Below are positions 4,164-60,010 of a stretch of 64,000 bases of DNA, one piece after another. The DNA is taken from NCBI RefSeq assembly GCF_006345805.1, contig NC_043011.1, forward strand, positions 57,362,464-57,426,463, written 5' to 3'. This stretch comes from Octopus sinensis. Taxonomy: Eukaryota. The notes beneath the pieces are model-generated. The model was not told the origin of the DNA and did no database searches. It saw only the letters and a list, made by a program, of their open reading frames with translations. Every line of letters starts with the position of its first letter. The stretch's first letter is position 1. The position numbers were made by a program, and so were the translations under genes.

Positions 4164-4237
<74 letters not shown>

Positions 4238-11887: not shown

Positions 11888-12825
11888 CAGGTCACTTTCG
11901 AGTGCTACTGGTAACATGTAACCCAGTACAACCTGTTGCATGGTCGGGTCGTCGGCGACTAAACCGGCAACCCTACCAAGCTTGCTTGGTGAGGAGGGTG
12001 TTTATTGGACACCCTGCGGGATGAAAATCAAAACCGTCAAAGGGTGGAGGAACTCTTGAGAGTCAACGGCCATCCAATAAATGTCTTAAGGCTGTATCAT
12101 GCGCGGAGACTGAATACCCGATCGTGTGGTTAAAACAATGGGAGTGAAGGACTCCTAGCCTTTGTTAGGGCATCCTTCTAGGAGAAGGTAACTCAGGTAA
12201 CTGGGATAACTCCGACATAAAACCTGCGGCTCAGCGGTTACCGATGATGTTGACTTGTTCTTCTTTTCGGATTATGGCAGCTGTTGCTTAGTGAGTGGGA
12301 TTGACTCAGTGCACAGCCTTTCCTCACTTTAAAAAATATCTTGTTGCACAGGCATTGCACGATAACAGCATTGATTAAGCTTCGTGCAATGGCCATACTC
12401 GATTACGAGGGGGCAGCCACCATTTATGTATGTATGTATGTATGTGCATATTTTTATGTTTTATGTATGTATTCTCAAGAATAGAATTACATATCTAGAC
12501 ATGCTTATATATATATTTAAATGATAAATTTCTGGAAAGTTTTACAGATTTTTACAGTTCCAGTTATGGATTGGATCTGTAGTCTTCGAATTAGCTTTCT
12601 CCTTTCTGGTTTTGAGAAGCCTAATTTCTCAAGATCGGTATTTAGGCAGTGTGTTACATATCCCAGGGCCCCAATAATTACAGGTATAAACCTGAACTTG
12701 TAATCCGGATAGAATAACTGCAGATTTTTCAATAGTTCAGTGTAGGTGTTCTCTTTGTCCCTGATCTCCAGCTTTATGTTAACATCCGTTGGGCAGCTAA
12801 TTCCTACAATTGTGCACAGTTTTTC
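11713..12825 (-). mobile_element. (TACA)n-family RLE 3' end (11713-11815 + 12424-12825), split by an insertion in its internal TACA tract
   Basis: ORF remnant KNLQLFYPDYKFRFIPVIIGALGYVTHCL..KICKTFQKFII*. Same 3' UTR as 6827-7035. Confidence 0.88.
11888..12422 (+). mobile_element. Non-coding non-autonomous retroelement (possibly RTE-derived) with (TGTA)n tail
   Basis: Second copy at 48187-48680. No ORF. 3' hairpin CATTGCACGA..TCGTGCAATG. Ends GGGGCAGCCACCA followed by (TGTA)n. The GGAGAAGGTAACTC..TAAAACCTGC segment recalls RTE 5' UTRs (inference). Confidence 0.7.
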
Positions 12826-13349
12826 TGTATGTACGTATGTATGTATGTATGTATGTATGTATGTATGTATGTATGTATGTATGTATGTATGTATGTATGT
12901 ATGTATTTATGTATGTATGTATTTATGTATGTATGTATGTATGTAGTATGTATGTATGTATGTATGTGTGTGTGTGTATGCGTGCGTGCGTGTGCATGTT
13001 TGTAATTCAGGTCACTTGTGTGGTATCTCATGAGTGCTATGGTAAGATGATATGTTGGCCATCACGAGCTGTTTCGGCCAGTGTTGACCTAGCGCTAAAA
13101 AAATCCCACATGATAGGAAGAAAATTTTAGTCCCTTTTATTCTGGGCTTAAGTGTACCCCAGCAAGCGTACCCCAGCCCCCACTGACTTGTTATACCTCA
13201 GAACATAGATGCATCCAAGTAACTAGACCGCATGCTTTTAGTGTGGAGTCTCGGCCAAAATTGTGTGTCTCAAACAAGACGATAGTGACGTCATCAGCAA
13301 ACACATTCAGACATACATACAATACATATTGAGAGGCACAGAAATAAAC

Positions 13350-18192: not shown

Positions 18193-20116
18193 CTCTCTCT
18201 CTCACTCTCTCTCTACTATTTGCATGGGAGGAAATCTGTATAGATAAATTATTTGCTCTTAGACTCTTATAATTTATTTTAACGAACCACTAGGTGATGA
18301 AAGCTCTCTTCGGCATGTTTTGAAGTCAGGACAACCAGAAGCAATCGTTTCATGTAACGATTTTATTGCCGATTGATTTAAACAAGAACCACGAGTATAA
18401 AAAATCGATTTTTCTAGTATTTGTCCTATATTACATATAACTATCGTTAAATGAATAAATGAAATAATATTAGAAGCGAATCGCAAGGGAAATGAATTCA
18501 CTCTGTTACGAATTTCGAAATTGTGTTAGTTTCCTATCTCTGAAAGATTGTAAGCTTACTAGTTAAGCTTATTTAACTGATAGCAGCCGTAATATTCAGT
18601 TGACGTCATCACACAAAAGTATGCCTCACTATCGTTTCCTTTTATCTGCGGAAGGAAAGATTAAAGTCGATCGTAAATTTCACATTACGATCTCGATTTG
18701 AGAGCAATATGATAATGATTGAATCAAGTACTGTATTTGGTTATATAAACCTCCCGCAAAGAAGCAGGGTTATTGCAAAGTAGTTCAGTTAGCAAACAGT
18801 AATAATGTTGAAGTCAGGCAATTGTTATGATTTCTATATCGATTCTTGATTAGTTCTCGGTTTCTCTATCTCTCTTTCATTGTCTGTCTGTGTGTTTCTT
18901 TATTATTACTCTCCCTCGAGGAGACGCAACATTAAGAGTCAATATTCAGTATTCTTCAACTGTTGCCTTATCTTCCGCAAATGTAATTAACAATGCCATT
19001 AATTCAACTTTTCTTAATCAGCGATATCCGTCAGCGAGTAATTATTCCGCGTGATCTCAAGTGAGAAGACACACTTATATCTCCGAAATGACGTTATCTG
19101 ATTTTATGTCACATCATCTCTCTCACTTGTTAATCTTTCTCGATGTCAACATTAAAAATATAATCTTCAAGCGTCACTTTGTCAAATTTATCGCTCTCTC
19201 TCTGCAATACCTGTAACCCAAGATTTCTCAAAGGGAATGAAAACAAAATTTATAGGGAAGGAAGAAGGAAACTATTTGACAAAAGGGAGGCGATTGAAAC
19301 TAAATAATTTTTGTATTTCAAATCAAGGTTTTGAAACTCATTTCGGTGTATATGCCTTAGGTAGTCATTCATGCATTCGAGAGCGACTTTGTAATAATTA
19401 TGTATACAGGATAAAGTTATTATCTAATAAACACGCATGATTTTTTTCATGCTTTTATATACAACCATTGATATTTCTCGCATTTGTCACAAATCTCAAT
19501 TAAGGATTTAGGGATGGAACTTGGTCATGATAAATGCTCTTTAGTTTCGGTATCATTCCCTCTTGTGTTCTCGAGTACATTGACCAGCAAGTTGCCATCA
19601 CTGGTTTCCGTTGGTTGCAGTTCTCTCTGCATCCAGCCATGTAATATTGGCCTCCACATGGAGTTAAAGGAATTAAGAGAAGAGAAAGTACTTTTTTTTT
19701 ATAAAGAAACCAATATTCTATTATTCGGTCAACGGTTCCTGTCATTAGATTGCTGCCATGATGCAACACAGGTCTCATACATTTTAAGATGATCTTAATG
19801 AACATGATAATTAATTCAGTTTGATGTTTACTTCATCGCTTTATAATAATCTAATAGCAGAGTCACCTTTTGACTTAAAGTGAGCGAACTTGGCGTACCA
19901 TTTTACACCGGTATGCACAAATACAGATACAAACACAAATGCACAAACTCATACACGCTTACTCGTGATCTCAATCACACGTACACACATGATTGTAAAA
20001 TGCTACGCGTTAATACTGCAGAGGTGCTGAACTGGTTCGAACCTTCAACCACTCGATTGTGAAGCCGATTTCCTGTTCATTTCCTTATTCCTCATGTATC
20101 AGCACCACATCAAAGT

Positions 20117-20516
20117 GGAGATGCTATGGCCAAATGGTTATGGCAGTGGACTCGCAGTCGGAGGATCGCGGTTTCGATTCCCAGACCGGGCGCTGTGTGT
20201 TTTTATTGAGCGAAAACACCTAAAGCTCCACGACGCTCCGGCAGGGGGTGGTGGTGACCCCCTGTTGTACTCTTTCGCTCCAACTTTCTCTCACTCTTTC
20301 TTCCTGTTTCTTGTCCCCGACTTCCTACCCAACCGCTGAGCCTGGATGCGCATTCATCCATCCGTCGATGCTCTCGGTGCCGGGCTTGACCTGCTTTCTC
20401 TTCTGCGGGTCTTACGAATAGCAAAGGACCACGTTTCGGACTTCTCCCACAACAGAGGCGCGATCTTGCGAGCTCTGGGACGAAGGCCGCTTCGCTCGAC
20501 AGCAACAGCAACAGCA
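20117..20516 (+). mobile_element. tRNA-derived SINE family D
   Basis: A box tggccaaatgg, B box ggtttcgattccc, CORE-like ttgagcgaaaacacct, short (CAGCAA)n tail. Confidence 0.7.
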
Positions 20517-20814
20517 CCACATCCAACCCATCAACCATCCAGAATATGAAATGAACACATAAACAATCAAGTGAAGTGCCACTAAGCATTACCAAACGTG
20601 CCAACGCTCCTGTCATCTCAGCGCCTTAACACTCATCTTCCATGTTATGGAAACAAAATAATTCTAGCGGGAAAGTTGAAAAAATACCTTCTGACAATTC
20701 TACTGATGGATTGTAAATTGGGACGCTTAAGACCTGTTAGGAGATTTACAGCATTATAATAGATAAACGCCTATGAAGTTTATTCTTCTAAGCATGGTAT
20801 TTCATCACAGAGAC

Positions 20815-20870
<56 letters not shown>

Positions 20871-22749
20871 GGCCTACTCGCTTAGCCAGCGGGTTGGCAT
20901 CATTTGAAGGCTAAAACAATGTGAAGCGCATTGTGACCAGCGATGTGTAGCAACATCTGATAGCCTGGTCGGTCACGTGGTCACGTGATATATATATATA
21001 TTATATAGAGATATTGACAGATTGATATACATTAATAGACAGATATGCACTTATATTCATACGTATATAGATCTATACCTTTATATACACACACATATGC
21101 ACACGTACATACAAACACACACACATATATATACATATATACAAGCACACACACACACAGATATATATATATATCATACATACATAAGCAGACAAGCCGA
21201 CGACAGATATATAAGTAGTTATATACATATATACAAATCTATATGCATGTATATTTTACATATCCACATATATATATAATTACACGCATAAATACACATA
21301 CATACACAACACATACATACACACAAACACACACATGTATATGTATAGTCTTTTGAAGTATTTTGTGATTATTAGTTTATTGAAGTTTCCGCCTTTCTTC
21401 CTCAAATCTAGACAAATACACTTGCCAAAAAGTTGTATTTATATAAACATTACTAATTGGAGACATCTTAATTCAACTTAATGAAAACATATTAACTCCA
21501 ACCGCACAATAGATCAAAGAGCCTGCAAAAGCATCATTAAATAAAACATTTCCTAAATTACTCGAAAAAGCAACGAAGATTCCATAGGTTTGTATGTCGT
21601 TATTAGAACTTCTTACTAAACAAGGAAATTTCTACCAACGTATTCACAATGTTATAGAATGCACTCTTGGAGTCGTGGTACATTACGAGTGCTGGCTCTG
21701 TGGATATTATATACTTGTTCAGTCAACCATTTTCGTAATAGCTGTTTGCTCGAGGAGGGATATCAGAGGCGACCATAAACAAGCAAGGAATATTCTATGG
21801 ATTTGTATATAGTCACTAAACTAGATCGTATGTATCGCTAGAATTTCTCACTAAAGTAAGCAGCTTTCTACCAACATTGGAAACGGAAATATCCGCTCAA
21901 AATGTTATTACTGCAGAAGGCGGTTTTATCCCACGACTTTGAAAGAAGTTCTCCTTTTTGCTATAACAAGCGGAGACAACCGCAGTGACACTGTTTACAA
22001 AAGACAGTTTTTCATATTGCCTTAATTGTTTTCATATATCTGTGCAGAGCATCAATCAAATACTTTTAGTGGTGAATATGAAAACCATATCTACAAGAGA
22101 TACTATCACTTTATTGCAGAAACAGTAATGATAAATGGTCTTTGGGTGGCTAATTAGCATCATTAAGGGAATGACCATGAAATTTAATTACATTTAATTT
22201 CAGAGTCGAAAGGTTGAGTCCTGTGTAGACGGATATTAAAGCAAAGATATGATTGGATAAATTAGCATTTACATTTTGTTTATCTGCTTGGTTTTTGGAC
22301 ACACCCATGAAGCCGTGATAATTCTTTTCACTTTTGCGTGTTCAATTCATTCGTTGATTGGTAATTAAATTATAATGTGTGAAGAGATAAATGAACTCTA
22401 AATTTATAACATAAAATTTCATAACTTTTGTATGTAATATAAAATAAATGGCGGCCGACCATTCAAACGTAACATTAATTTTATTTATCTTTTCCTCAAT
22501 TAAAATTATTGTGATTTAATCTCTGAGGATTATAACATACTTATATGATATAAAATGCCTCGGATTTGCGAAGTGTCCCTGAAATTATTGGCCAAAGTAC
22601 AACCACACATTTTTTGGCTAATCAAAAATGTAATCTTTACACTGCTAGGCAGGTTCCTCTCCATTATATATATGCATACACATATACAAACACACGCACA
22701 CACACACACATATATATATATACGTAAATTTGGAACGATGAAATATATA

Positions 22750-23115
22750 TGAACAACAATTGAATTACATCAGTTGCTATATATCAATTCACTACAAATA
22801 GACTGCATCCCATCTAACAGCTGTTTCTGCTTCCAATGTTGTATGGTATTGCCACTGATAAGCAAAAATATGTGAAAATATTTATATTTGGTTATACTCT
22901 TCTTTATGCTCTTTTTCTTTATTTATTCTTCACTCTGATGAAGCACCTTGCTTCAGATCGGTTTCATTACCAAACATGATTCATATTTTATACACATTTT
23001 TGCATATCAATGGCAATATCATACAACATTGGAAGCAGAAACAGCTGTTAGATGGGATGCAGTTTATTTGGATTGAATTAATAAACAATAATTGATGTAA
23101 GTCAGTTGTTGTTCA
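22750..23115. repeat. Long inverted repeat (~130-bp arms) carrying hammerhead 3' halves
   Basis: Arms 22750-22881 and 22983-23115. Each has GAAA-CAGCTG-TT-AGATGG facing outward. CTGATGA at 22935 lies in the spacer. Confidence 0.85.
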
Positions 23116-23329
23116 TCAGTAATGCTCCATTTTCCGTTTTCTTTGAATTTTGATTCTTGATAAAACCATGTTTATCCTTGTCTTTATCTATAATTTATGA
23201 ACATAATATGCTTGCATATGTATGCCCATGGTTAAACACAGGTAATTTACCGGTAGTGTAATGTATACTTCTATCCTTTAGAGAGTCATTCTGACCACTA
23301 ACTCAACCAACCGATATATATATATAATT

Positions 23330-23560
23330 AAGGTGGCGAGCTGGCAGAAACGTTAACACACCGGGCGAAATGCTTAGCGGTATTGCGTCTGTCGTTGCGT
23401 TCTGAGTTCAAATTCCGCCGAGGTCGACTTTGCCTTTCATCCTTTCGGGGTCGATAAATTAAGTACCAGTTACGCACTGTGGTCGATGTAATCGACTTAA
23501 TCCGTTTGTCTGTCCTTGTTTGTCCCCTCTATGTTTAGCCCCTTGTGGGTAATAAAGAAA
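23330..23560 (+). mobile_element. Full SINE A (tail type B)
   Basis: Near-identical to 15340-15570. Set in (TA)n. Confidence 0.92.
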
Positions 23561-23561
23561 C

Positions 23562-23611
<50 letters not shown>

Positions 23612-24412
23612 AGGGTAAAAATATGGCCTAGCATATTGAAAAAAATCTAAAGATTCAGAAAAATTTTTCACATACATATAAGTGTGATGACCACTAGGTG
23701 GACATCCAATATGCTAACTATAGGCCCCATATAGTCCGACCACTAAGACAGACTTGTTCTCAAGAAAATTCGGCAAACGCCAGAACGTAAGCGAGCAAGA
23801 CAAATGAAAAGTTTCAAAATATAATGATTAGTCACATACCAGGTTTCATTGTTACCATTTACATGTTCACATACGTAAATGTCCGCAATTCATCAGTGCG
23901 ACCGTCATATAAAATATAATTTGTAGTACTGTACACGAGACGTCCACACGAAAGAGAACATGCATACACACGTGTATACAGCTCCATACATATATGATGT
24001 TAGGAGATACACAGAAGAGAAATTGTAATCTATAGATGTAGTAGTGTTTATCTCTATACCATATATAACTGTATATATGCGTTTGCTGATGAAGACCTAA
24101 GAGACAACGATGAAACCATTTACTTTATCCGATTATTCCTAAAATAAACCAGCAACAAATCTGAGTTATTCCATCAGTGAAAAACAGACCTAGCACTTCA
24201 TGCGAGATGAACAAGCACCAACATTATTGTTACCACACAAATGTAGCAGCCTGATATCTGTGTGTGTCCCTGCCTGTCTGTCAGTCAGCCAGTATGTCTT
24301 TCCCTCTCCCTCTCTCTCTATCAATCTGTCTTTCTTTCTCTCTCTCTCTGTCTGTCTATCTAATATGCCTGCATGTTACGTATGTATGTATGTATCTACC
24401 TATCCGTATATA

Positions 24413-24444
<32 letters not shown>

Positions 24445-24623
24445 GCATCTATACACATCTATATGCACAAAGAAGATATATACATACATATAAACATACC
24501 TTATAATTTATATATATATATATATATTATATATATATATATATATTTGTATGCATATATAAGTTCATATACACATGTTCATGCATATACATACATATAT
24601 GTATATATTGATATATAGTGTGA

Positions 24624-24739
<116 letters not shown>

Positions 24740-25256
24740 AGTATATATTATATATACATATATATGTATATATATGTGAGTATATTTATGTGACTGTGTA
24801 TGTGTGTTTGTGCTTGTGTGTGCCTATGTATGTGTATTACCTTTCTAAATCGTATAATCTTTATTTTTCACTTTATATATTTGAAATATAAGACACTGGA
24901 ATCGTTGAAACAAAGTAATGCCACAAGTAATTAACCGCCATTACATGCTACTAACATATTTAATCCGAGGATTAACTAAGCATTAGATTGCATTCTAAAC
25001 AATACACACTCAGTCTCTCTCCCCCTCTCTCTTTCTCTCCTTTCACACATACTCACGCACGATCACCCACACGCACATGCATAAACGAAAGAGCTGCAGG
25101 GGTCACCAATTCGGTTTGTAACAAGACATAAATTTACAACAAGGTCGGAATGACACATGGAAACTGTGGAAAATATGCTAGGAATCAGTGTTGGAATTAT
25201 ATTTAAGTGAAGTAGGCTTCAATATTGAGTATTTCTTGTGATACAGTCTTCATATA

Positions 25257-25415
25257 GGCACAGGCGTGGCCGTATGATAAGAACTTTGCTTTCTAACCAC
25301 ATTGTTCCGGGTTCCACTGAGTGGCACCTGGGGCAAGTGTCCTCTATCATAACCTCGGACAGATCAAAGTCTTCTTAGTGGATTTAGTAGACAGAAAATG
25401 AAAGAATCTCGTCGT
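25257..25415 (+). mobile_element. SINE B, 5' half
   Basis: ggcacaggcgtggcc..gtggcacctggggcaagtgtc..ggatttagtagacagaaa. Confidence 0.8.
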
Positions 25416-26507
25416 ATATATATATATATATATACTGTCGTAACTGTCCTGTTTTTACCATTTTTTACCCCTCTGCAAAAAGATCTCAGAATTTTAATTG
25501 ATTTGCTTTTCGCAGGAAGTAAAGTTTTCTTGCCGAAGATACGTCTCGCTTTTATCCTTCGAAACGTAGAGTAGATGAAACCTTTAGCGACTGAAGAAGG
25601 GGTTTTTCTTTGCGTTAATTGTCCTGTACACTATTTTTTTGCTGTTTTTAAATAAATGTCTAGTTCCTTTGGTTTGTGTCTATGTTTTCGTTTCTCATTG
25701 TGTTCGACGTCCTTTTGGTGTCCTGTACTCATATATGCGTGTATATGTACATGTAGAGGTAGGTACGTACATATATGTTTATATATATGCATATGTTTTA
25801 TTTTATTTATTAATGTATTATATATATATAGGCGTAAGAGAATATATTCTCAATGTCCTTGGTGTAAAAACACCTGAAAGCAAGTCATAGCCGAGCGAGA
25901 AGAACTCACATCAAGTCCTTTTCATTCGGAGCGACAGACATCGATGTTTCGGCATCTTTTTGACTTGTCAATGCCACATACTGAACAGGGTTTGCTGTGA
26001 GCTATCTAACCGGCTATGACTATATACTAAATGGTTTAAGAACCATCTGCTGGCATTACACCTAAAAACGCAGCCGCCCGAGGAACTAACAACACACGTA
26101 CCTCGTGTACATGCTCTCAACTTTGTTTAAATACGTCGAACTGCTTCTAATTCACATTTGAATATATATGTATGTCTGTATGCGTGCCTCTGTGTGTGTG
26201 CGTGTGTGTAAGTGTGATGCACATGTGTAAATGTGGTGCGTGTGTGTGTGTGTGTGTATTCTAGCAGGTCTAACTGCGAGAATGCAGCAGCTACGTAGAT
26301 ATATATTGCTATGGAACTAATTGAAATGGCGAGAAGAAAGAGCAAGGTACTTGCTTAAAAAGTTATCTAAGGAAATGCAGTTTGCACCTGTGATGCAAGA
26401 CAATTGATTGTACAGCATGTCACCTATGAGGTATAATTGCGGAATGAGTCGAGACAATTGTAGTGGATTTGAATAAAGAATCTCGTGAATTCCATTTTAT
26501 GTCTTTG

Positions 26508-26607
<100 letters not shown>

Positions 26608-26623
26608 GCATGTACACACACGC

Positions 26624-26677
<54 letters not shown>

Positions 26678-26679
26678 AG

Positions 26680-26845
26680 TAAGCACTTTCTCACAGTTCC
26701 AGTCTACCTTTATCACCCACGAGGCGTCGGTCGGTCGGAGGCTATAGTAGAAGCTATGTATGCGCTAGGTGCCGCGCCGCGGGACTGAACACGAAACTTA
26801 GTGATTACAAAGCGATCTTCTTTACCACATAGCCATGCTTGCATC
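26680..26845 (-). mobile_element. SINE B, 5' half (degenerate)
   Basis: ggctatagtagaag..gggactgaac..accacatagccatgc. Confidence 0.7.
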
Positions 26846-26920
26846 TATGTAGACAACTGCTAAAAAATGTCACCAATGTTAAAATTTTTCCATGAAGCTG
26901 AAAAAGAAAAAATGCCTATT

Positions 26921-27164
26921 AGTCCACAACTGTTTAACTTTCTGCCAGATATCCTTAGAGGTCTTCAAAGAACGTCTGGACAAACTTTTATCTGAGATAC
27001 CAGATGAACCCACATCACAGCAGGAGGCACTAACAAGAGTAGCACCGTCAAACTCGCAACTTCACCAGAAACAATATAGAAAAGAGACTCAAACACACGG
27101 AAAGGCAGTGCTCCAGGATGGCCTCAGCCTCTGGCTGAAATCCGTAAATGGTAAAAGATAAAAG
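26921..27164 (+). mobile_element. CR1-type LINE 3' end
   Basis: PQLFNFLPD / VFKERLDKLLSEIPDEP..SNS is a typical CR1 ORF2 C-terminus. It is followed by a short 3' UTR ending in TAAAAG repeats. Confidence 0.75.
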
Positions 27165-28578
27165 AATTGGTGCTAAAGCTTTGTACGATGCCATACGTAT
27201 GGACTTTCCGAGGCGCAATAAGCAAAATGTATTGGGATGTGTAATAGATGCAGATAATGGGGCCGTTCCCGTCAGCTTTGTTGAATTCTTATCAGAATTG
27301 TTGTCAAAGTGAATCACCGTGTCATGACTGAATCTGAAAGGAAACAACCAGATGACGACAGCTTCGATGTCTTTAATCAACGACATGTTTGATTAAACTG
27401 GGACTGATCTGGGCGAGAAGCAGCAAAAGCATTAAAATCAAGATGAAGAAAAACAAGAACAATGAAAGTATAAAAAATAGACAGCTTTCGAAATCGCATA
27501 TCAGCCATCGACTCGATAGATTAACGAGGTTTGGTAAGTGTTTAGAGTTAATGGAATCGGATTTGTGGAGGAGTTTTGGGTTTGACAGAGTCTGTTGACC
27601 TCCTGTGGTTTCATTTCCCTGTTATCCTGTCATTTCCAAAGGCATTGGTTGGAAAGTGTAAATCCCAACTGACATTGTTGCAGATGAAGTAGCGGAGAGG
27701 ATGGGTGGGTGTTAATTTAAAGGTGATATAATAAATATTTCTGAAGAAAGATTCTGGCTTCAGTTTATAATCTTGACTTCAGTTTTAACGGATAGAATAA
27801 ACTGCTTGGAATAATATGCAGAAAATGTCGGTTTATCCCAGGAGAATCGGTTTCAAAATCCGATGAAGTGAAGACAGGTTGGAAAGAAATATCATCCGGC
27901 TACATCTAGCCACCTCCTGACACGCAGGGACACACGTACGTGTTTGTATGTATGCTTATATGTATGTACTATGTATATATGCAAGTATGTATATATGCAA
28001 GTATGTATATATGCAAGTATGTATGTATGTATGTATGTATGTATGTATGTATGTATGTATGTATGTATGTATGTATGTATGTATGTATGTATGTATATAT
28101 GTATGTATGTATGCATGCAGGCATGCAAGTATGTATGTATACGTATGGAACTATTTGTCTGTCTGTCTATATATCTATCAATCTATTTATCTACCTATCA
28201 CTCTGTATCTCAATCGATATATGTATTTATGTATGCGTGTATATTTATGTATCTATGTGTGTGTATGTAACTATTTCATACGAACGCACTCGACACTATA
28301 TATTCATACATGCACAAATACAGGTGCAAAGACATAATCCTAAGAGCAAAGGTAGAAAGACAACGGACCGAACAAGCACAAAGCAACGTGTTCTTACTAG
28401 AGCAGGAATATTGAAGAGGGTGGAATAACGTGAGCGTTAGAGTATGACGTAAGCCCTCTGCTGAGTCGAGATGCTAAGTCTGCGACACGTATGGCCATAA
28501 TCTCCTTGGGAATAGAACCTGCCTATCAACAATGCAAATGTACTGAAAGCATGATATATAGATATAACTATTTCAATA

Positions 28579-29452
28579 TTCTAGGCACAAGACCCGAAAT
28601 GTTTGGGGAGGGGGCCGGTCAGTTAGATCGACCCCAGTACACAACTGGTACTTAATTTATCGACTCCGAAAGAATGAAAGGCAAAGTCTACCTCGGCGGA
28701 ATTTGAACTAAGATAACTATTTTAATATTGCTTCTACTGCGTATTGCGGGTTTTTATTCAGATAGGCGACAAATTCCGCCGAGGTTTGACTTTACTTTTA
28801 ATCCTTTCGGTGTAGGAAAAAATAAATACCAGTTGAGTACTGGGGTCGATGTAATCGTCCTCACCAAAAGATTGCCGGCATGTACCCAAATTTTAAATAT
28901 ATATGTGTGTGAGTGTGTGTGTGTGTGTGTGTGTGTATTAGACTGGGGCCATGCTGGAGCACCACCCAGAGAAATTTTAGTAGAACGAATCGACCCCAGT
29001 ACTTATTTTCTTTTAAGCCTGATGCTTATTATAACAGTCCTTTTTGCTGAACCGCTAGGTCACGGGGATGTAAACACACCAACACCTGTTGTCAAGCGGT
29101 GATAGGACAAACACACACACACACACGATGGCTTTCTTTCAGTTACCGTCTACCAAATCCATTCACAAGGCTTTGGTTAGTTAATAGTAGAAGATACTTG
29201 CGCAAGGTGCCATGCAGTGGGACTGAACCCGGACCACACAGCCACGCCCGCGCCTATATAATGTACGAATATATTGAATGGATTATTGATTATTTGCAAT
29301 ATGTCTCGGCACACAAATTCCGCCGAGGCCGAATTTGCCTTTTATCCTTTCGGGATCAATAAATTAAGTACCAGTGGCGTACTGGGGTTGATCTAATCGA
29401 CTGGCCCTCCCCCCCAAAAAAATTTCAGACCTTGTGGCTAGAGTAGAAAAGA
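28579..29452. mobile_element. SINE cluster: A (-) 28579-28710, A fragment (+) 28770-28890, B (-) 28940-29255, A (+) 29313-29452
   Basis: Family motifs are present. TSDs ataactattt(c/t)aatatt flank the first and aatatgtctcgg flank the last. Confidence 0.85.
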
Positions 29453-31592
29453 ATATGTCTCGGAATATTCGAACAGGAGCACTTGTCATCAACCTGTTGT
29501 GAAGACTGTCTTTGTTGTAGAACTCGAACAATATGTGGTATCCTATTACTATTTAGCACTGTGGCTACAAATCGCGCGCAAACAAATGTTGAGGCCATTA
29601 CGACTGCGATTGGTAAATGTCTATATACTTCCCTGAATTAAAATATTTTCATTTTGGCCTCGTTGCTCGATATGCATTAACTGATAATTTTGATTTTCTT
29701 TCATAATATTTCCTCTGCTTCAATATTTATTTTTTAAAGGACACATTAAAAAATCTGTTTTGTTAAATTTTATTATGGCAACCCTTTAAATTATTTCGTC
29801 AATTCCATTAAGAATTATGAAAATCATGACGTAATTTCCAAATATGAATATAGTTAAGAATCCTACAAAGAAGAAAAAACAATATCATTCTATAAACTAT
29901 TTAACAATGTGCGAAAGGAAAGCTAGCTGGTCACGTGCTCTTTAAATTACTTTGCATTGTATTTTTTCCTTTTTCTCAAGCTGTGTAGAATCACTTCAAT
30001 CATTTTTATCTTTATTTTTTACATACGTGTTACTCAAGAACATTCATTAAACGTTCCAAACTAAAACAGCAATAAAAAAGAGAAGCAAAATTTTAAAAAA
30101 TAAAACAGTAAAAGAGTGTTCTTTCAAACATAAGAAGGCAGAAGAACTCCTCTTGTTCCTTATCGTCAGTCAAACACTTTTCTCTGGCAAATCACTTTAA
30201 ATTCCTGTACTTTTTGTTTAATCAAAACTTGTCATATGTTTTAGGTCACACCGCAGAAGTAATTCAGACAGATTTGTGGAATAAAAATGGAGAAAACTCA
30301 GTGAATTTCATCATCTATATTTTATGCAAAATCCAATTAATTGAACTAATTTCGACCTGACATTCATTCGTCTCTTACACGTCTGTGTCTGTATTAAAGA
30401 GATCTGCACGGAAATGAAGCATATCGACTTCTGTCTGGATTATCAACACAGCCGTTGGCTTCTACAGATGAAACTAGTTACAAGGTAGTCTGAATAGACT
30501 GATTAAATCAATCTGTACTTTAGAACTTACAAGATCTACCACCAATAGTATTTGGAGGTTTGTCGGAGAACGTTTTGTAAGAAGTGAGCATACAGTAATA
30601 AAAAAAATGGCGACGCTGCATCAAGCCATAATTGAAAAACCATTACGCATTACTTACTGATGTCATTAATGGAACTGGGGAAAAAAAATCATGGAGATTA
30701 TAATTCCAGTTTCTCAATCACCGAACGATTTTCGGATATCGCTTCTTTCTGTATCTTGCCTAAAAGAATCCAATATATCTGAATATGTTGTGGCGAACAC
30801 CATGAAGCAAGAAGTGAAATACCTGGTTAACGGAAATGCGCAAAACCATTTCAATTATCGGAAAACATATCACCTGTTAACGCCTACGCCATCACTTTGG
30901 AGAGGGCCGAAATATTTATGTAATATTTACTGAAATTTGTTTACTGAAGACGTTTGTTTAATGTAAAATATTTGCTTCCTTATGTGTACGTTCAGACTCT
31001 CATTCTCACATAAATGCAAATGTATATATGTTATTACATCTGCCCTCGTTTATTACAGGTATTTAGTTAAAACAAACTCCATCGCATTAAATGAGCCAGC
31101 GAGAAATGAATAATAGAACACATGGGGAAAACAGGTTTTGTTACGAGACCCCAAGTTGTTCTGAGCATTGTTGGTTGCTGGGGCATACATTTGCGGTCCA
31201 AGCAGTATCTTTGATTGATCATCTATCCCTGTTACTACGGACCAATTCGTGATAAGCGCAACACGGTTCGCAATGAACTTACTGTGTTATCTCGGATCAG
31301 TGGTGAATGAACCACTGATAAATAAGGATAGACGTAATTCTGCAACAACGGCCAGGCATTATAAATGTTGACGTTGAAATAAATACATTGACAGAACCGT
31401 GAGGACAGTTTTCATTTCGACTCATTCATTATGTTCTGAGATTAACTTTACCTTTCATATTTCTGGGATCAATTAGAATAAAGATTAGGTTGGGAGACAA
31501 CATCATCAATTGTTTCACTCCGCCAAATTAATGGCCTTATGTCTATAACAGAAATATTGCAATTTCTTGCATGCAATAACATTCTTCAAACC

Positions 31593-31800
31593 TAAGGCGA
31601 CGAGATCACAGAATCGTTACCGCACCGGAAAAATGCTTAGTGGCATTTCTCCCGACTTCAACTGGTGCCGGGGTCGGCTTTGCTTTTATCCTTTCGGAGT
31701 TGATAAAATAAGTACCAGTTGTGGACTAGAGTCGATGTAATCGTCTTAGCCATTCCCCTCAAATTGCTGCCTATGTGGCAAAATTTGAAGCCATTATCCT
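31593..31800 (+). mobile_element. Degenerate SINE A
   Basis: aaggcgacgagatcacagaatcgtta..ctttcggagttgataaaataagtaccag. Confidence 0.75.
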
Positions 31801-32019
31801 TCAAATGTAAACAAACCTTAGAGAGCGATTAAACTTTCGCTTTTGTTGTTTCCTTCTCGCAAGAGCGCCAGAAGCGATAAAGAGCAGATGTCATAAAGTT
31901 AAAACGGATTAACACGTCTCTTCCCTTGGAAAAGGTGCAGAGGTCGATTGTATGGTGTAAATCCCACAGCAGGGTTCTTAAATCGGAGTACCCTAAGTGC
32001 GACGTAAGCAAGTTTTGTC

Positions 32020-32260
32020 TTGAATGCTGGGACTCATGGGACCGGATATCCGGTTTCTGTGGTGATCGAAATCACAAAATTCCCCAGAATGAGACGAACA
32101 CCAAACCATCAGACGGTTACCGATTTACAGCCGAGTGGACTGCTGCCACGTGAAATGAAGTATTTTCCGCCAAGAGCACAACGCAGCACCTCGTCCGAGA
32201 AGCGAAACCACGATCTTCCGATCGTAAGTTCAACGTTTTAACCAATAGGCCACGCGCATT
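32020..32260 (-). mobile_element. tRNA/CORE-like SINE related to family C, with a different body
   Basis: Head GCGCGTGGCCTATTGGTTA..GTGGTTTCGCTTC and CORE-like CTCTTGGCGGAAAATACTTCATTTCAC. Confidence 0.65.
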
Positions 32261-32559
32261 TACTGGGTGAGGTGAAGAGGAATGATAAGAATTGGAGTGA
32301 AGTAGTTTCAACTGGGAATCGAAACTGCATCGTTGATTTGGTTGGTCAATATCTTACCTCTTTGTGGACTGCTGCTGGTCACAAAGTAAAGCGTTAAAGG
32401 TAAACGCCGTATGTGAATGAAACCGTTCGTTGAACGTAGAAAATGGTCAGATCTTTCTCTTCCCGCTCCATCACCGTTTGAACTCATTATTACCGAACGA
32501 TGCTTCAAGCAGGAAGACTTACATTACAGGCAGCAATTAAATATTCTTGCTCGATGCAT

Positions 32560-33244
32560 CACTTTCACCACCACCGCCGACAAAACCACCGCCGCCACAA
32601 CGCTGCTCTCCCTTTCCTCTCCTCCTCCTCCTTCTCTCCTCCTCCTCCTCCTCCTCCTCCACTTCCCCCATCTCCTCTTCTTCTCCTCCTCTCCTCCTCC
32701 TCCTCTTCTCCCCACCCTCCCCCTCCTCCTCCCCTCCTGCCCCTCTCCTCCTCCTCCCCTCCTTCTCCTCCTCTCCACCCTCCTCCTCCTCAGCGCCATC
32801 ATCTTCATAAATCGTGGTCGTCGTCGCCGTCGTCGTAAACATCGTCATTATCATCACCACGCCCACTTCCACTCCATCATCATCCTCATCCTCATCATCA
32901 TCTAGAACAACATCATCCATAATAGTAGCATCAATAGCAAGGTTTTTATTTTTTTTTTCCAATTCCTTTGGGAAATCTGCTTTCTATTATTATTATTATT
33001 ATCATTATTATTATTATTATTATTATTATTACTCGTATCAATCATTTGCAAGGTACATGGTTTTCGATTTTTCTTTCCATTTTCCCAGTTTAAAAAAAAT
33101 AATTAAAAGCTTTCAAATTAATTATAATTAAGGTTCACTCACATCGCTCTCATTTATAAAATGTTACGCAAGGATTGTCGAACATTGGGTACGATATCCT
33201 CCTCCTCCTCCTGCTCCTCGCCTTTCTCCTCCTTCTCCTCATCT

Positions 33245-33292
<48 letters not shown>

Positions 33293-33400
33293 CAACACCG
33301 TCGCCGCCACCACCACCACCATCACCTCCACAACTACCACAACGACGACCAACAACATCGTCATCAACGACACCACCACCACCACCACCACCACTACCAA
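32560..33400. repeat. Compound trinucleotide low-complexity tract (CCT, CAT, TAT, ACT, CAC)
   Basis: Direct reading. It explains the poly-P/S/E/H ORFs. Confidence 0.9.
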
Positions 33401-33837
33401 CACTGATTATAGTAATGTATTCTGATGTAGAAACGGGCCAAGAAATTAGTTGGATGGGTATGTGTGTGGGTGTGCGGCGGTGTTGGGGTGGGGTTCAGTC
33501 GATTAAGTCGACCCCAGTACATGACTGGTTCTTTCTTTTATCAACATCGTAGAGACAAAGCTGATTTGTATTGAGAACAATTAAGGACGAGAGAAAACGC
33601 GGCAACGCATCTTCCGAACGTTCTATAACGACTTTGAACAATCAGATCAATCAACGTTTAATAATTTCTGGTGTAAGCATTACTGGACCACAGTAGATCA
33701 CTGGTACTTTATTTTATTAACCCCAGGAGGATGTAAGGCAAGCATGAGCATGACAGGATGGATTTGAACACAGAATGTAAGGAGTCACAACCCCCCCCCA
33801 AAAAAAAAAACCTGCAGAATATTTCCGATTTTCTCTG

Positions 33838-33975
33838 ACAGGTTTGGTTGTGTGGTAAGAAATTTTCTTCCCGACCTAATGGTTCCGGGTTCAGTCCCAC
33901 TGCGTAGCACTTTGGGCAAATATTTTCTAGTATAGCTCCAGGTTGACCAAAGACTTGCGAGTGGATTTACGACGT
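33838..33975 (+). mobile_element. SINE B, 5' half
   Basis: ggttccgggttcagtcccactgcgtagcactttgggcaaat. Confidence 0.8.
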
Positions 33976-34589
33976 GTATATATATATATATATATATATG
34001 AGTGTATGTGTGCGAGCGCGCTCACACACATTATACATGAGTTATATTTCGCCGTGCCGTTTTTTCTTTTCAAAGTTGTATTACTTCCTTGCCTTCGACT
34101 CATCAGGTAGATTTTCAGACCCGGCTCTGACCTACAAATTCTATAGCTGATCACCCATATTCACCCATATTCACGAACTCATCAAATCTTACACTGACAC
34201 ATGCTTGTGTGACACGATCACCACTTTCTAAATATTGGAGGCTTTTAAACTAGGAACAAACAAACACAATAAATAAATAAATAAATAAATGGAAAGAAAA
34301 ACGTAAAGAGGACCTGGAACTACAAACAACAATTTTCAAGTCAATATAATATTTAGAAAATTCCACAGCTACACAAACAAACCTTTTCGCTCTTCTTATT
34401 GTAGCCGTCTCACTGGATTCCGAAATTTAATTACACCTTAATCCCGATTGTTTGAAAATTATTTTTAATCAGTTTTCGTGCGTTCAACCATCTTTTTACA
34501 TGAAATCCTTAAATTAGCCATATTTATTGCCCGCTTCTTCCAACCAAAATAATCAGTGGAATGTTGTTTTCTTTAAATTACGCACTTCC

Positions 34590-34743
34590 AGATAATAATA
34601 ATCAATAACAACAACACCAACAACAACAACAACAACAATAATAATAATAATAATAATGATAATAATAATAACAACAACAATAATAATGGTAATAATGATA
34701 ATAATTATAATAATAATAATAATAATATTATAATAATAATAAC

Positions 34744-34778
<35 letters not shown>

Positions 34779-34907
34779 CATAATAATAATGGTAATAGAT
34801 AATAATAATAATGATAATAATAATAATAATAATTATAATATAATAATAATAATAACAACAACAATAATAATAATGGTAATAATGATAATAATAATAATAA
34901 TAAATAA

Positions 34908-34962
<55 letters not shown>

Positions 34963-35100
34963 ATAATAGTAATAATATAACAACAATAATAACAACAATA
35001 ATAATAATGATAATAATGATAATAATATAATAATAATAGTAATAATAACAACAACAATAATAATAATGATAATAATGATAATAATATTAATAATGATATA
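34590..35100. repeat. ~500-bp imperfect (AAT)n/(AAC)n tract
   Basis: Direct reading. Confidence 0.95.
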
Positions 35101-35399
35101 GAACACCCTTTTCCACATCTGATAATATTTTCCCTTCACTCTCTTCCCTTGTTACTATACGCTCTTAAAGTATAATCTTTAATTCTCCATTAATGATATA
35201 ATTGTTAAGAGAGCATTCATAGCATAATGTTTAACAGGACTACATAAACAAGCTACGAAACCATAAACAAACTGATATTCGCCCCGCGATTGGTGCGTTG
35301 TGTTTTTAGGTACACATACACACACACATCATATATGCATAAATATAAATATGGAGGCAATTATGCGGATAAACAAATTAGATATATATAACAGTTTGG

Positions 35400-35565
35400 A
35401 TTTGACAGATATTTGTCCTCATCTTGTTTGTTGTTAACACAACGTTTCAGCTGATATACCCTACAGCCTTCATCAGGTGTCTTGGGGAAATTTCGAACCT
35501 GGGTTCTCATTCCTAAGGTATTTTTCGACATTATTATTATTATATTATTATTATTATTATTATTA

Positions 35566-35609
<44 letters not shown>

Positions 35610-35702
35610 TCACTGCCTAGAATCGAACTCGGAATCTTGGGGTTAGTAGCCTGCGCTCTTCACCACTATGCGATATGCCCTCATCTCTTAAATGTAGAAC
35701 TG
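35400..35702 (-). mobile_element. tRNA-headed, hammerhead-containing short element, copy 1
   Basis: tRNA-like head at 35606-35680 with A and B boxes, (AAT)n spacer, hammerhead at 35436-35481. TSD tataacagtttgg at 35387-35399 and 35703-35715. Confidence 0.85.
35436..35481 (-). ncRNA. Minimal type I hammerhead ribozyme
   Basis: GACAC [CTGATGA] A-GGCTG-TAGGGTATAT-CAGCT [GAAA] CG [TT] GTGTT, with palindrome AACGTT. Confidence 0.75.
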
Positions 35703-36018
35703 TATAACAGTTTGGGTATGAAATACAAAATATGTATATATGTAGTCACTTTTTGCTTTCTCTCGTTGTGCATGTATACATATATACTAGATATTTTGTA
35801 TTTCATACCGAGACTGTTATATTTGATATATCTAATCTGCTCAACTTGATCCCTCTTATAGCCATTTATTATCCCATGGAGTTGATCTCCTGTAAAGACA
35901 TCGGGGTCTAAGTTTGAATCATTTGAGCACTAGTGTCTTCTATACCGAGAATCTCTGGATCTCATCTGTGGACTATATAAACAGAAATGTGTGTGTGTGT
36001 GTCTGTGTGTGTGTACAG

Positions 36019-48186: not shown

Positions 48187-48680
48187 TTAAACCGGCGACT
48201 AAACCGGCAACCCCACCAAGCTTGCTTGGTGAGGAGGGTGTTTATTGGACACCCTGCGAGATGAAAAACAAAACCCGTCAAAGGGCGGAGGAACCCTTGA
48301 GAGTCAACGGCCATCCAATAAATGTCTTAAGGCTGTATCATGCGCGGGGACATAGAAATAATCGGACTGAATACCCGATCGCGCGGTTAAACCATTGGGA
48401 GTGAAGGACTCCTAGCCTTTGTTAGGGCATCCTTCTAGGAGAAGGTAACTCAGGTAACTGGCATAACTCCGATATAAAACCTGCGGCTCAGTGGTTACCG
48501 ATGATGTTGACTTGTTCTTCATTTCGGTTTATGGCTGCTGTTGTTTAGTGAGTGGGATTGACTCAGTGCACAGCCTTTCCTCACTTAAAAAAAAAATCTT
48601 CTTGCACAGGCATTGCACGATAGCAACATTGATTAAGCTTCGTGCAATGGCCATACTCGATAACGAAGGGGCAGCCACCA
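48187..48680 (+). mobile_element. Second, 5'-truncated copy of the 11888-12422 non-autonomous element
   Basis: Collinear with 11955-12422. (TGTA)n tail. Confidence 0.85.
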
Positions 48681-48800
48681 TGTATGTATGTATGTATGTA
48701 TGTATGTATGTATGTATGTATGTATGTATGTATGTATGTATGTATGTATTTATGTATGTATGTATGTATGTATGTATGTATGTATGTGTATATATATATA

Positions 48801-48842
<42 letters not shown>

Positions 48843-54990: not shown

Positions 54991-55030
54991 TTGTTGACGT
55001 TTCAGACATTGGAGCCCTTCATCAGAAAAA
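54991..55030 (-). ncRNA. Minimal type I hammerhead motif (Penelope-type, decayed)
   Basis: TTTTT [CTGATGA] A-GGGC-TCCAAT-GTCT [GAAA] C [GTC] AACAA. Confidence 0.6.
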
Positions 55031-57597: not shown

Positions 57598-58823
57598 TAC
57601 ATTAAGTATAATATATAGTGATTATATAGATATATCTAAATTATTTGTATATTGCAGAGAAATATAAATTTAAAAGTCTTGTCAACATTACGAAGTGTTA
57701 TAAAAATATAATCAAGTGCTTATAAGGTAAATAAGTTACAGAAAAACACGGAAAAGGTTGTCTTCGATATGAAAAGAAATAGATGTATAGGAAATCTTTC
57801 CGCCGCTTGTTTCCGAATAATGAACCTGTGATTGGGTCGTTGCAAATCTGAAATATACTGAGATATCAAACGTATTATAGACAGAAATAAGAAAAAGTAA
57901 CTAGTGACTAACCGTTGGATTTTGTGTTTGTTGACCTATTTCTAACTGAGTGTTGACATATCAGTGAAGGAGATCAAAATATCTTGAAATAGAAATAAAG
58001 ATACCAAAGATCCGGAAACAGAAATAACTACGCCGAAGAAATCAAAGATTAAACTTGTCACAGACGGTCTCGTTGATGTTTTCAATTTGGATTTATTTGC
58101 CGGAACCTATCAAGTATATATAAGAAGATATATTTGTCGCCTTTATATGATTTCAATGACTAAATACAACAAAAAATTGAAAGAGAACATTGCAACATAT
58201 CTTCCCAAATTAATCCTTCAAATACCATTAAGTATTCCTTCGCTTCAGTCTCAATATTTTTAATGATACATAAGTTTGTTTTTGCATTCAAGATAGTATT
58301 TAAATAAATTTGCAATCTTCTGAAAAAGATTTCCATAGCAATAATTTACTTATTTGTGAAGAGAATATTGTCATTTCTTAATTCAACAAAATGCAGAAGG
58401 TATTCATATCAAAGAAATCTACAGCCATTACTTAACATTGAAAACTTACTTTCAGACAAATCGCGAAGTTATATTTGTATTTTAAGTACAAGTTAACGAC
58501 CGATTAATATCGAAAACAAATATCCACACAGAAAGGCTTTGACAGTGGACTTATTTCTGGCTTTCCGCACTAGATTTATCATTGCATACAATCTGCTGCT
58601 AGAATCAATATTTGCGGTTCTTCAGTTTAAAAGTGTTCTTAATCTGGTTTTAAATTTGACTGGAGTTAATAACAATACTCGAATGATTCACTGATGGAAG
58701 ATATGTGATTTGTATCCGAGGAAAGTAAACGGAAAACTGAAGCGACAGATGGAAACGGTGAAGAAAAATGGTGAGGTGGGCAGAGGAGGTGGAGCGCTGG
58801 ACTAAACGGTGAGAACGTTTAGT

Positions 58824-59133
<310 letters not shown>

Positions 59134-60010
59134 GTGGGCAATTATGGAGTGAATTTTTAGAGCTTATTATTCAGTTCTAAGATTTGCGGTCAAATTCGAA
59201 CGGAGTCGTTTTACTTATTTACTAGTACATGGTACAAATACTAAACTAAGTTGAGGGCTAATCTACACCATTATACATCGATTCTAAAAAAAATTAATGT
59301 CGCCATATGAGTATAATAGATATTAATTAAAAACTTGTGTAGTCGAGCTATCAATAATGACGGAGCCATTGTTTAAAAATTGTAAATGATGGAAGTTGCT
59401 AATGAGAGTATGAAGATGTAAATAGAAATACCAAAATAACAGCAAAATAAGAAAATTCTATTTTCCCCCAAATATTAGACAACAGTTGTGTGCGAGTATG
59501 TCTGTATGTATGTATGTATGTATGCGGGTGCGTATGTGCCTGAATGTGTTTGTGCGTATTTGTGTTTATGAGTGTGTGTTGGTGTGTGTGTGTGTGGGGG
59601 GGGGGTGTTTGAGTGAAAACAGATTTTGTTTGCTGCGTAAATATCGGAGATCCAAAAGAGAAGTGGAAAAAATCCATATTCCATCGTTACATCGTAATCA
59701 CTTGTGATGTAATTGTACATGTACACACACAAACATCCGTACACACATACACACGCATAGACATACACCCATATGCTTGCGTTAGTGCGTATGTGTTTGT
59801 AGTTGCGCGTTTATGGTGTTTTCTCTCCTCCAACTGTGACTGGAATGGAATGTCCCGTGGAGCACCTACAGAAAATTTGCTTCTTAGGAACGAGAAAGGT
59901 TAGAAGGGTTTTGGGTACTTGAAAGGTTGTACGGAAGTTGTGGATATCTCAGGTTACAGTTGGTAACTCTCTACCCACATAAATTCTACCAAACCTGAAT
60001 CAAGTCGAAA

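What the first reader, a model, noticed from the sequence alone, without database searches (positions are those of the whole stretch)
35400..35702. Short mobile element combining a tRNA-like Pol III head with a Penelope-type hammerhead ribozyme (second copy 58824-59133)
Seen: on the minus strand, a tRNA-like head (TCGCATAGTGG A box, AGTTCGATTC B box, CT-ACT-AA loop) is followed by (AAT)n and then GACAC-CTGATGA-A-GGCTG..CAGC(C/T)-GAAAC-GTT-GTGTT. Stem I pairs in both copies (GACAC or AACAC with GTGTT). Copy 1 is bounded by a 13-bp TSD and includes 22 extra nt beyond the tRNA head. Known: minimal hammerheads with palindromic stem III are typical of Penelope-like elements and retrozymes and are thought to cleave as dimers; schistosome SM-alpha is a precedent for tRNA promoter + hammerhead. 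Inference: a Pol III-driven, self-cleaving non-autonomous retroelement, possibly mobilised by Penelope RT and possibly making circular RNA.
Basis: partly seen in the sequence, partly recalled or inferred. Interest (0 to 1): 0.78.

Follow-up and report, generated by a model that had tools for sequence, protein, structure and literature searches.

The report
Penelope retrotransposon with captured tRNA promoter
The short repeat is the front end of a protein-coding Penelope retrotransposon that carries a tRNA-like head, and its whole 3-kb message is likely made by RNA polymerase III, an enzyme thought to serve only short non-coding parasites.

Summary
Both copies are real, but they are not a stand-alone SINE. 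Head, (AAT)n and hammerhead form the terminal repeat (pLTR) of an autonomous Penelope/Poseidon-type element: 27 of 30 ORF-selected copies end in this head, two complete copies carry it at both ends, and the 841-codon RT-endonuclease ORF starts just before the hammerhead and runs through it. Copies show Penelope marks: inverted 5' arms (61 of 90 loci), two 3' end points, 9-15 bp target duplications. Of 61 arms, 51 begin at the head, and five template-jump joints lie at -6, the expected Pol III start. Short and long copies share majority sequence and age (5% divergence), so short copies are best read as cDNAs of the 5' end of the element's own RNA. The 3-kb sense strand has no TTTT and the lowest T-run content against 95 relatives. 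Likely mechanism: a captured tRNA-Arg-like promoter drives the whole element. Pol III use is inferred, not shown; RNA reads did not decide it. Circular RNA from short copies is unsupported. About 20,000-35,000 old copies; none intact seen.

The parts
35703..35715 (.). Target-site duplication of copy 1, upstream member (13 bp)
35680..35702 (+).
   Evidence: reverse complement of the family 3' end
35606..35680 (-). tRNA-derived head of copy 1 (A box 35663-35673, damaged; B box 35620-35630; anticodon-loop remnant)
35531..35605 (-). (AAT)n linker between head and ORF start
35400..35510 (-). First 37 codons of the Penelope ORF (ATG at 35510), ending at RT start site 1
35436..35481 (-). Minimal type I hammerhead inside the ORF start; predicted cut between 35441 and 35440 (after GUU); closing pair of stem II is G-U in this copy
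35387..35399 (.). Target-site duplication of copy 1, downstream member
59134..59167 (-). Copy 2: stop codon of the Penelope ORF (59164-59166) and spacer before the head; shows this copy came from a read-through of an upstream ORF
   Evidence: 84% match to L133 upstream sequence
59081..59133 (-). Copy 2: tRNA-derived head with the B box deleted
58970..59080 (-). Copy 2: (AAT)n linker
58823..58949 (-). Copy 2: first 42 codons of the Penelope ORF (ATG at 58949), still open in frame, ending at RT start site 1
   Evidence: (frame 58650-59015)
58875..58920 (-). Copy 2: minimal hammerhead, stem II broken at the second pair; predicted cut between 58880 and 58879

Best explanation
[quoted passage not shown] Shown: unit = 6-nt leader, tRNA-like head, (AAT)n, ATG, hammerhead, two RT end points, rest of an 841-codon RT + GIY-YIG ORF, stop, 31-nt spacer, next head. 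Inferred steps: (1) transcription starts at the G six bases before tRNA position 1; (2) Pol III reads through the ORF because the sense strand has no TTTT, and into the next pLTR; (3) the uncapped, uncut RNA is translated from the AUG after the (AAU)n leader; (4) as in the anole element, the protein nicks AT-rich DNA and starts reverse transcription inside the RNA, 120-140 or about 173 nt into the ORF, copying towards the 5' end: from the first pLTR this gives the 300-nt 'SINE', from the second pLTR a long or full-length copy; (5) the second target strand is primed the same way, or the cDNA folds back on the small hairpin at its end, giving the inverted arm; (6) hammerhead cleavage falls 70 nt inside the ORF, so it would destroy the message and is probably a brake, not a step of copying. 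Separate odds: part of the autonomous element 0.97; RNA starts at the head 0.85; Pol III makes the ORF-bearing RNA 0.6.
For: ORF followed by head in 27 of 30 ORF-selected copies; complete copies L509 and L511 with the head at both ends, 5' end at -2 and at the fold-back point; ORF open from the ATG through the hammerhead, 841 aa, no stop, and homologues P0003/P0149 translate the same hammerhead at their N-terminus. 5' ends: in position-sampled loci 51 of 61 arms start within the head zone, 10 pass it; 7.9 expected from the truncation rate in the ORF, P about 1e-35. Among 92 junction loci, 11 of 14 upstream heads start at -14 (a fold-back) to +30 and 3 run into an upstream ORF; five joints to other partners lie at -6 (L390, L391, L459, L477, L489; L390 and L391 probably one event). 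Short and long arms share the majority base at all positions listed and have 5.0% and 5.2% non-CpG divergence. A and B boxes are kept while tRNA stems are lost; best match tRNA-Arg(TCT), z 7.4-7.7 among 20 distinct tRNAs. No T4 in the 2986-nt model RNA; 6 T4 in 20.4 kb of 12 decayed copies against 4.6 per kb in 80 relatives and 2.1 per kb in 29 T-matched ones; relative TT and TTT content of the majority rank lowest against 95 relatives while A, C, G are ordinary, and single copies stay at the low end; two other Penelope-like ORFs of this genome have 10 T4 each. 3' ends cluster at two points, as the two RT start sites of PMC11167929.
Against: No direct sign of Pol III use: RNA reads lie on both strands, follow copy number and show no start at the head or at the cut site. 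The T4 absence alone is modest: P = 0.036 by synonymous shuffle, 0.003-0.07 depending on the null; 1 of 49 long relatives also has none; G4 runs are absent too, though that is common in relatives (36 of 95). The element's own sequence forms an imperfect palindrome around the head start, so RT stalling or fold-back could also pile up ends there. A 3-kb Pol III message goes against the stated length limit for Pol III elements (PMC10886601). A two-codon upstream ORF sits in the head. DNA of the closest relatives (61-68% protein identity) could not be read, so the T-run trait could not be tied to gain of the head.
Confidence: 0.6

Rival explanations
1. Built-in SINE: the autonomous element is expressed by Pol II from some other start, while the tRNA head makes short Pol III RNAs from solo copies, which Penelope protein copies in trans. 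The short copies would then be a self-propagating Penelope-dependent SINE.
For: Short copies hold both boxes and often both RT end points; they outnumber ORF-bearing arms about five to one (25 of 30 head-sampled loci; 24-mer counts 682 ORF, 3614 head, 6490 and 10391 tail); no T4 in the short unit.
Against: No diagnostic changes or age difference between short and long arms. ORF-bearing RNAs also start at the head (L509, L511, L399, L463). T runs are missing over the whole ORF, which a short RNA would not require. The anole protein needs RNA downstream of its RT start sites (PMC11167929), which short copies largely lack; copies ending at site 2 could still serve for site 1, so some secondary copying is not excluded.
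Confidence: 0.2
2. Ordinary Pol II Penelope with a passenger: a tRNA-SINE once landed in the pLTR and is carried along; 5' ends pile up at the head because the RT stalls or folds back at the palindrome there, or because a Pol II start happens to lie there.
For: Imperfect palindrome around the head start and perfect fold-back junctions in 8 of 70 arms; Drosophila Penelope uses a LINE-like internal promoter (PMC2377424); RNA reads give no Pol III signal.
Against: Five joints to unrelated partners at exactly -6, with a pyrimidine-purine start; no 5' ends between -50 and -166 in the position-sampled arms; boxes perfect in the majority while tRNA stems decayed; T-specific run depletion; no AATAAA in the pLTR (weak, only 6 of 21 relatives have one after the hammerhead).
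Confidence: 0.15
3. Retrozyme-like element: short RNAs self-cleave as dimers, circularise and are copied from circles.
For: Complete minimal hammerhead with covarying stems; 5' ends of tail arms are denser just after the cut site (42 ends at positions 92-110 against 18 at 61-91).
Against: Tandem same-strand copies at 6 of 90 loci; most arms span the cut site; the excess after the cut site is a plateau, not a peak, and positions 16-60 are nearly as dense; no reads begin or end at the cut site; the cut lies inside the ORF; cleavage is not needed for insertion in the anole element.
Confidence: 0.05

Closest known systems
Penelope/Poseidon-clade elements, e.g. Poseidon of Anolis carolinensis (PMC11167929; abstract and main text read)
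   Same: Single ORF with RT and C-terminal GIY-YIG; hammerhead overlapping the ORF start; two RT start sites giving an optional 30-40 nt tail; AT-rich targets; uncut RNA as template; inverted and partial-tandem insertions (PMC8557442 passages).
   Different: The pLTR here holds a tRNA-derived head and (AAT)n directly before the ATG, the RNA 5' end maps to the tRNA-type start, and the sense strand has no TTTT. No A/B-box pattern was found within 1500 nt before or 900 nt after the ORF match in 80 relatives or in 15 more loci; many of these loci are short or lack flanks.
Cassandra, Helenus and Ajax (TRIMp3; PMC10886601 passages)
   Same: Small-RNA-derived Pol III promoter inside a terminal repeat, probably gained by SINE insertion.
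   Different: They are non-coding, 311-1263 bp, LTR-type; the paper states that their autonomous partners must use Pol II. Here the promoter-like head is in the protein-coding element.
Schistosome SM-alpha (seen only through the review PMC6765202, passages; original not held)
   Same: Pol III-type promoter followed by a hammerhead.
   Different: Non-coding tandem repeats with a canonical hammerhead; here dispersed, inverted, minimal hammerhead and part of a coding element.
Non-LTR retrozymes (bioRxiv 10.64898/2026.07.22.740005; abstract, introduction, part of methods, word search)
   Same: Short sequences related to Penelope pLTRs with a type I hammerhead.
   Different: Defined by tandem arrays; 'tRNA' and 'polymerase III' do not occur in that text.
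RTE-1_DAn and relatives (one sentence in PMC5786205)
   Same: An autonomous LINE said to contain a tRNA-like sequence.
   Different: RTE clade; position and role of that sequence not seen and not followed up. It may be an independent precedent.
Octopus tRNA-derived SINEs OK, OR1, OR2 (Ohshima and Okada 1994; title only, in a reference list; not held)
   Same: tRNA-derived heads in what is probably the same host group (host and their tRNA-Arg origin are recalled, from no call).
   Different: Could not be compared; one of them could be the donor of the head.

Membership tests
Penelope-like element, Penelope/Poseidon type | Single ORF with PLE-type RT (DKG motif, YVDD) and C-terminal GIY-YIG with CCHH residues | tested here: met
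   Majority ORF of 841 aa; 1583 homologues at E<=1e-30 carrying PF00078/PF26215, some PF01541. The decayed single copy L162 itself gave no Pfam hit.
Penelope-like element, Penelope/Poseidon type | No zinc-finger-like linker between RT and EN (present in Neptune/Nematis) | tested here: met
   Linker absent here, present in L101 and L104 of the same genome, which branch apart with full support (quick tree, 26 rows). No named Poseidon reference was in the tree.
Penelope-like element, Penelope/Poseidon type | pLTRs by partial tandem, inverted 5' arm, optional 30-40 nt tail | tested here: met
   L509, L511, L513; both strands at 61 of 90 loci, 60 head-to-head (the three sets overlap in part); two 3' end clusters.
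Minimal Penelope hammerhead (Cervera and de la Pena 2014, passages) | Core, extra base between 9 and 10.1, G10.1-C11.1, palindromic 15.2-16.2, stems I and II | tested here: met
   Met by the majority; 88.6% of cells paired, 42 double changes, 0 of 500 shuffles, slid controls 24-45% in 14 sequences chosen by motif. Each window copy has one stem II defect.
Minimal Penelope hammerhead (Cervera and de la Pena 2014, passages) | Self-cleavage, as dimer or protein-assisted | not testable with these tools
   Monomer folds are not more stable than shuffles; indirect sign from 5' ends is a plateau.
tRNA-derived SINE (SINE2) | tRNA-related head with A and B boxes | tested here: met
   Collinear match to genomic tRNAs, best Arg(TCT); only some isotypes were sampled. 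The box pattern matches the majority head and 30 of 30 tRNA loci.
tRNA-derived SINE (SINE2) | Non-coding, independent of the partner's 5' end, with its own master lineage | tested here: not met
   Head is in the autonomous element's pLTRs, the 'tail' is the ORF start; no own subfamily or age.
tRNA-derived SINE (SINE2) | Transcription by Pol III | tested here: inconclusive
   Indirect support; RNA reads uninformative.
Non-LTR retrozyme | Head-to-tail tandem arrays with a hammerhead in each unit | tested here: not met
   6 of 90 loci with two same-strand tails.
Non-LTR retrozyme | Circular RNA | tested here: inconclusive
   No such joint among those listed in the RNA runs; only about 6% of each raw run was read and only the best-supported joints are shown.
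TRIMp3 (Cassandra/Helenus/Ajax) | True LTRs with PBS and PPT, non-coding | tested here: not met
   pLTR structure, coding body, 9-15 bp duplications.

The most novel reading that the evidence does not exclude
An autonomous, protein-coding retrotransposon switched to RNA polymerase III: it captured a tRNA-type internal promoter, purged every TTTT terminator from a 3-kb message, and was translated uncapped from an (AAU)n leader. Because Penelope RT starts inside the RNA near its 5' end, it sheds tens of thousands of SINE look-alikes that carry their own promoter, a route to SINE birth from the 5' end of the partner.
Probability: 0.55. Interest if true: 0.92.

Novelty: new variant of a known kind. 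Interest (0 to 1): 0.8.

Why it matters
The working rule is that coding retrotransposons use Pol II and only short non-coding ones use Pol III (stated in PMC10886601 and PMC5786205, passages). A natural 3-kb coding element on a tRNA promoter would break it and give a natural case of Pol III mRNA, so far known to me from reporter constructs (PMC8223928 passages show a TTTT-free luciferase expressed from Pol III promoters). It also gives an in vivo record of the internal-initiation mechanism of Penelope RT, maps the RNA start from DNA copies alone, and warns that some annotated tRNA-SINEs are pieces of Penelope elements. No paper describing such an element came up in ten searches of the held library; Repbase, Dfam and most subscription papers were not searchable, and the supplements of PMC8557442 and PMC13282606, which may list the family, were not opened.

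Tried and rejected
Rfam and ARAGORN at default find nothing on the element; at lowered score ARAGORN gives an implausible fold. A GIY-YIG family search of the genome returned mostly other Penelope-like families; none of 30 loci shared the tail. My first idea, that the hammerhead trims a leader as the HDV ribozyme does for R2, was dropped when the ORF proved to start before the cut site. A separate short-copy subfamily was looked for and not found. RNA runs showed the family on both strands in proportion to copy number, so no claim of expression from its own promoter is made; organism codes A-D hold 0.34-0.53 of the words of one copy in DNA runs, and contigs of B and C cover the ORF body. Viral contigs held no relative. 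Earlier scan notes held nothing. The poly(A)-signal contrast is weak. The careful tree did not finish; the quick tree is cited. DNA around the closest protein relatives was not obtained, which leaves the comparative test open.

Full report
Observation. Both copies are in the window on the minus strand. Copy 1 has head, (AAT)n, hammerhead and a 13-bp target duplication as described. The 22 extra bases are the reverse complement of the family's 3' tip. Copy 2 lacks the B box and begins 34 nt before the head. Each copy has one defect in stem II, so neither is likely to be functional. The hammerhead pattern occurs 3 times in 64 kb against 0.01 by chance.

Family size and shape. The genome (2.72 Gb) holds many copies. 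Forty stretches of 10 kb chosen by position held five loci, one cut by an edge; the other four have hits on both strands, which scales to roughly 34,000 loci with a wide margin. Exact 24-mers occur 682 times in the ORF 200 nt before the head, 3614 in the head (three ambiguous letters), 6490 and 10391 in the tail, with 0 for reversed controls; 17 of 60 unselected arms carry the first tail word, giving about 23,000 arms. In three genome-order sets of 30 loci, which overlap in part, 61 have arms on both strands, 60 of them head to head, and 6 have two same-strand tails. Exact duplications of 8-15 bp flank 19 of 73 distinct loci, 0 of 73 controls. 3' ends fall in two clusters, tail positions 143-161 and 193-196, the latter capped by the query end. 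These are the marks described for Penelope-like elements (PMC8557442, passages).

It is part of an autonomous element. Three tail-selected loci showed coding sequence before the head. Searching with it gave 30 loci, of which 27 continue into the head, 2 skip to the tail and 1 stops (one of the 30 is the query). Walking 5' gave the rest. Two complete copies have the head at both ends: L509 starts at -2, L511 at a fold-back palindrome and carries an inverted arm. The majority of 42 junction reads shows that the ORF begins at an ATG 33 nt before the hammerhead core and is open for 841 codons; window copy 2 still shows this frame. Homologues P0003 and P0149 translate the same hammerhead at their N-terminus. 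The protein has Penelope-type RT and GIY-YIG motifs without the Neptune linker, groups with unnamed proteins of 61-68% identity and then with a group that includes barnacle proteins. No intact copy was seen among those fetched; copies are about 5% diverged from the majority outside CpG.

Why the short copies look like SINEs. In the anole Poseidon element, reverse transcription starts inside the RNA at two sites shortly after the ORF start, needs RNA beyond them, prefers ATT targets and does not need hammerhead cleavage (PMC11167929, abstract and main text). Here the two end clusters lie 120-138 and about 173 nt after the ATG. Copying from the first pLTR therefore yields only the 5' end of the RNA, and the 5' ends of short copies record where the RNA begins. 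In position-sampled loci 70 head-bearing arms were scored: 9 run 167-584 nt into the ORF, 1 starts at -49, 8 are fold-back palindromes, 43 start at -8 to +16 and 9 at +17 to +30. Leaving out the last 9, 51 of 61 end at the head where 7.9 are expected. In 92 of the 96 junction loci, 14 have a head upstream in the same direction: 11 start at -14 (fold-back) to +30, 3 run into an ORF; and of 15 head hits joined downstream to ORF pieces, five join at -6 (two probably one event), one each at -7 and -5, four further inside the head and four inside the ORF end. Short and long arms (145 and 60) show the same majority base and the same divergence. So the short copies come from the same masters at the same time, and ORF-bearing RNAs start at the same point.

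The head. It aligns end to end with tRNA genes of this genome, best with tRNA-Arg(TCT) among 20 distinct sequences from 30 loci, which do not cover all isotypes. A and B boxes fit the consensus in the majority (box consensus recalled; the pattern matches 30 of 30 tRNA loci), while the cloverleaf is lost. A start at a purine a few bases before tRNA position 1 is where Pol III starts (recalled).

The terminator test. If Pol III makes the coding RNA, the sense strand must lack TTTT. The 2986-nt model RNA has none, against 31 A runs. Synonymous shuffles give P = 0.036, the codon usage of two other Penelope-like ORFs of this genome P = 0.009, and relatives P = 0.003-0.07 depending on T content. Normalised for base content, TT (0.76) and TTT (0.53) are lower than in all 95 relatives, whereas A, C and G are mid-range; G4 runs are also absent but are absent in 36 of 95 relatives. 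Twelve single copies give TT 0.71-0.88 and TTT 0.44-0.83, overlapping the lowest few relatives. Seventeen of 21 relatives have two or more T4 runs around their hammerhead. None of the relatives showed A/B boxes or a tRNA, but they are distant (27-46% identity) and often short. This is good indirect evidence, not proof.

The hammerhead. It has all features listed for minimal Penelope hammerheads (PMC4209133, passages), and stems I and II covary across 14 sequences chosen by motif. The cut lies 70 nt after the ATG, so cut RNA cannot be translated from that start. Most copies span the site. 5' ends are denser just after it (42 in positions 92-110, 18 in 61-91) but as a plateau, and 71 lie in 16-60; some cut RNA may have been copied. 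Circles from short copies are not supported.

RNA. Two raw RNA runs of a related organism give thousands of reads on both strands, with depth following copy number and no defined ends at the head or cut site. This fits passive transcription of old copies inside genes and decides nothing.

Comparison and verdict. It is a Penelope/Poseidon-type element, not a SINE, retrozyme or TRIM by the tests listed. What differs from described members is the tRNA-type head in the pLTR, the RNA start at that head and the loss of T runs. Pol III promoters in terminal repeats are known only for short non-coding elements in what I read (PMC10886601, passages); one sentence notes a tRNA-like sequence in an RTE LINE (PMC5786205). 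Ten library searches found no description; two cephalopod repeat papers (PMC13282606, PMC8967140) and a squid genome paper (PMC6962438), seen as passages, do not mention it in their main text. That the host is an octopus is my recall, from no call. Origin, by inference: a Penelope copy inserted at its preferred ATT target in an (AAT)n run behind a tRNA-derived sequence and kept it as promoter. That the (AAU/AAC)n leader helps cap-free translation is speculation. New variant of a known kind; interest 0.8.

Noticed in passing
window 54996-55025 (-): A third minimal hammerhead (palindromic ACGU, cut after GUC, weak stem II) with no likeness to this family; probably a remnant of another Penelope-like family.
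   Followed up: partly
L005, L021, L124 (also L007, L117, L121, L139), inside the (AAT)n linker: 3' ends of LINEs with a restriction-like endonuclease sit inside the AAT linker and split head from tail; Dong/R4-type targeting of TAA repeats is recalled.
   Followed up: partly
L101 (-) 1814-4462 and L104 (-) 1933-4257: Intact ORFs (about 780 aa) of two Neptune-type Penelope-like families with zinc-finger linker, apparently young; one has a degenerate hammerhead-like motif downstream.
   Followed up: partly
L390 and L391: Same internal structure (pLTR, first ~220 nt of the body, then head from -6): a possible non-autonomous deletion subfamily.
   Followed up: partly
L097: Tandem repeat of about 556 nt carrying hammerhead-like motifs on both strands; a possible retrozyme-like array.
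   Followed up: no
L491-L508: Animal-type Penelope RT-endonuclease loci with hammerheads occur in bacterial and archaeal MAGs of the genome collection, most likely host contamination.
   Followed up: no
P0001, P0002, P0166, P0173: Closest relatives (61-68% identity to a decayed copy) come from unnamed assemblies, next a barnacle-containing group at 53-56%; such closeness across phyla hints at horizontal transfer.
   Followed up: no
window 11975-12472 and 48213-48840: Two copies of another repeat, 89-92% like the flank of L133; window 1794-2351 (+) and 12517-12906 (-) hold LINE endonuclease fragments.
   Followed up: no
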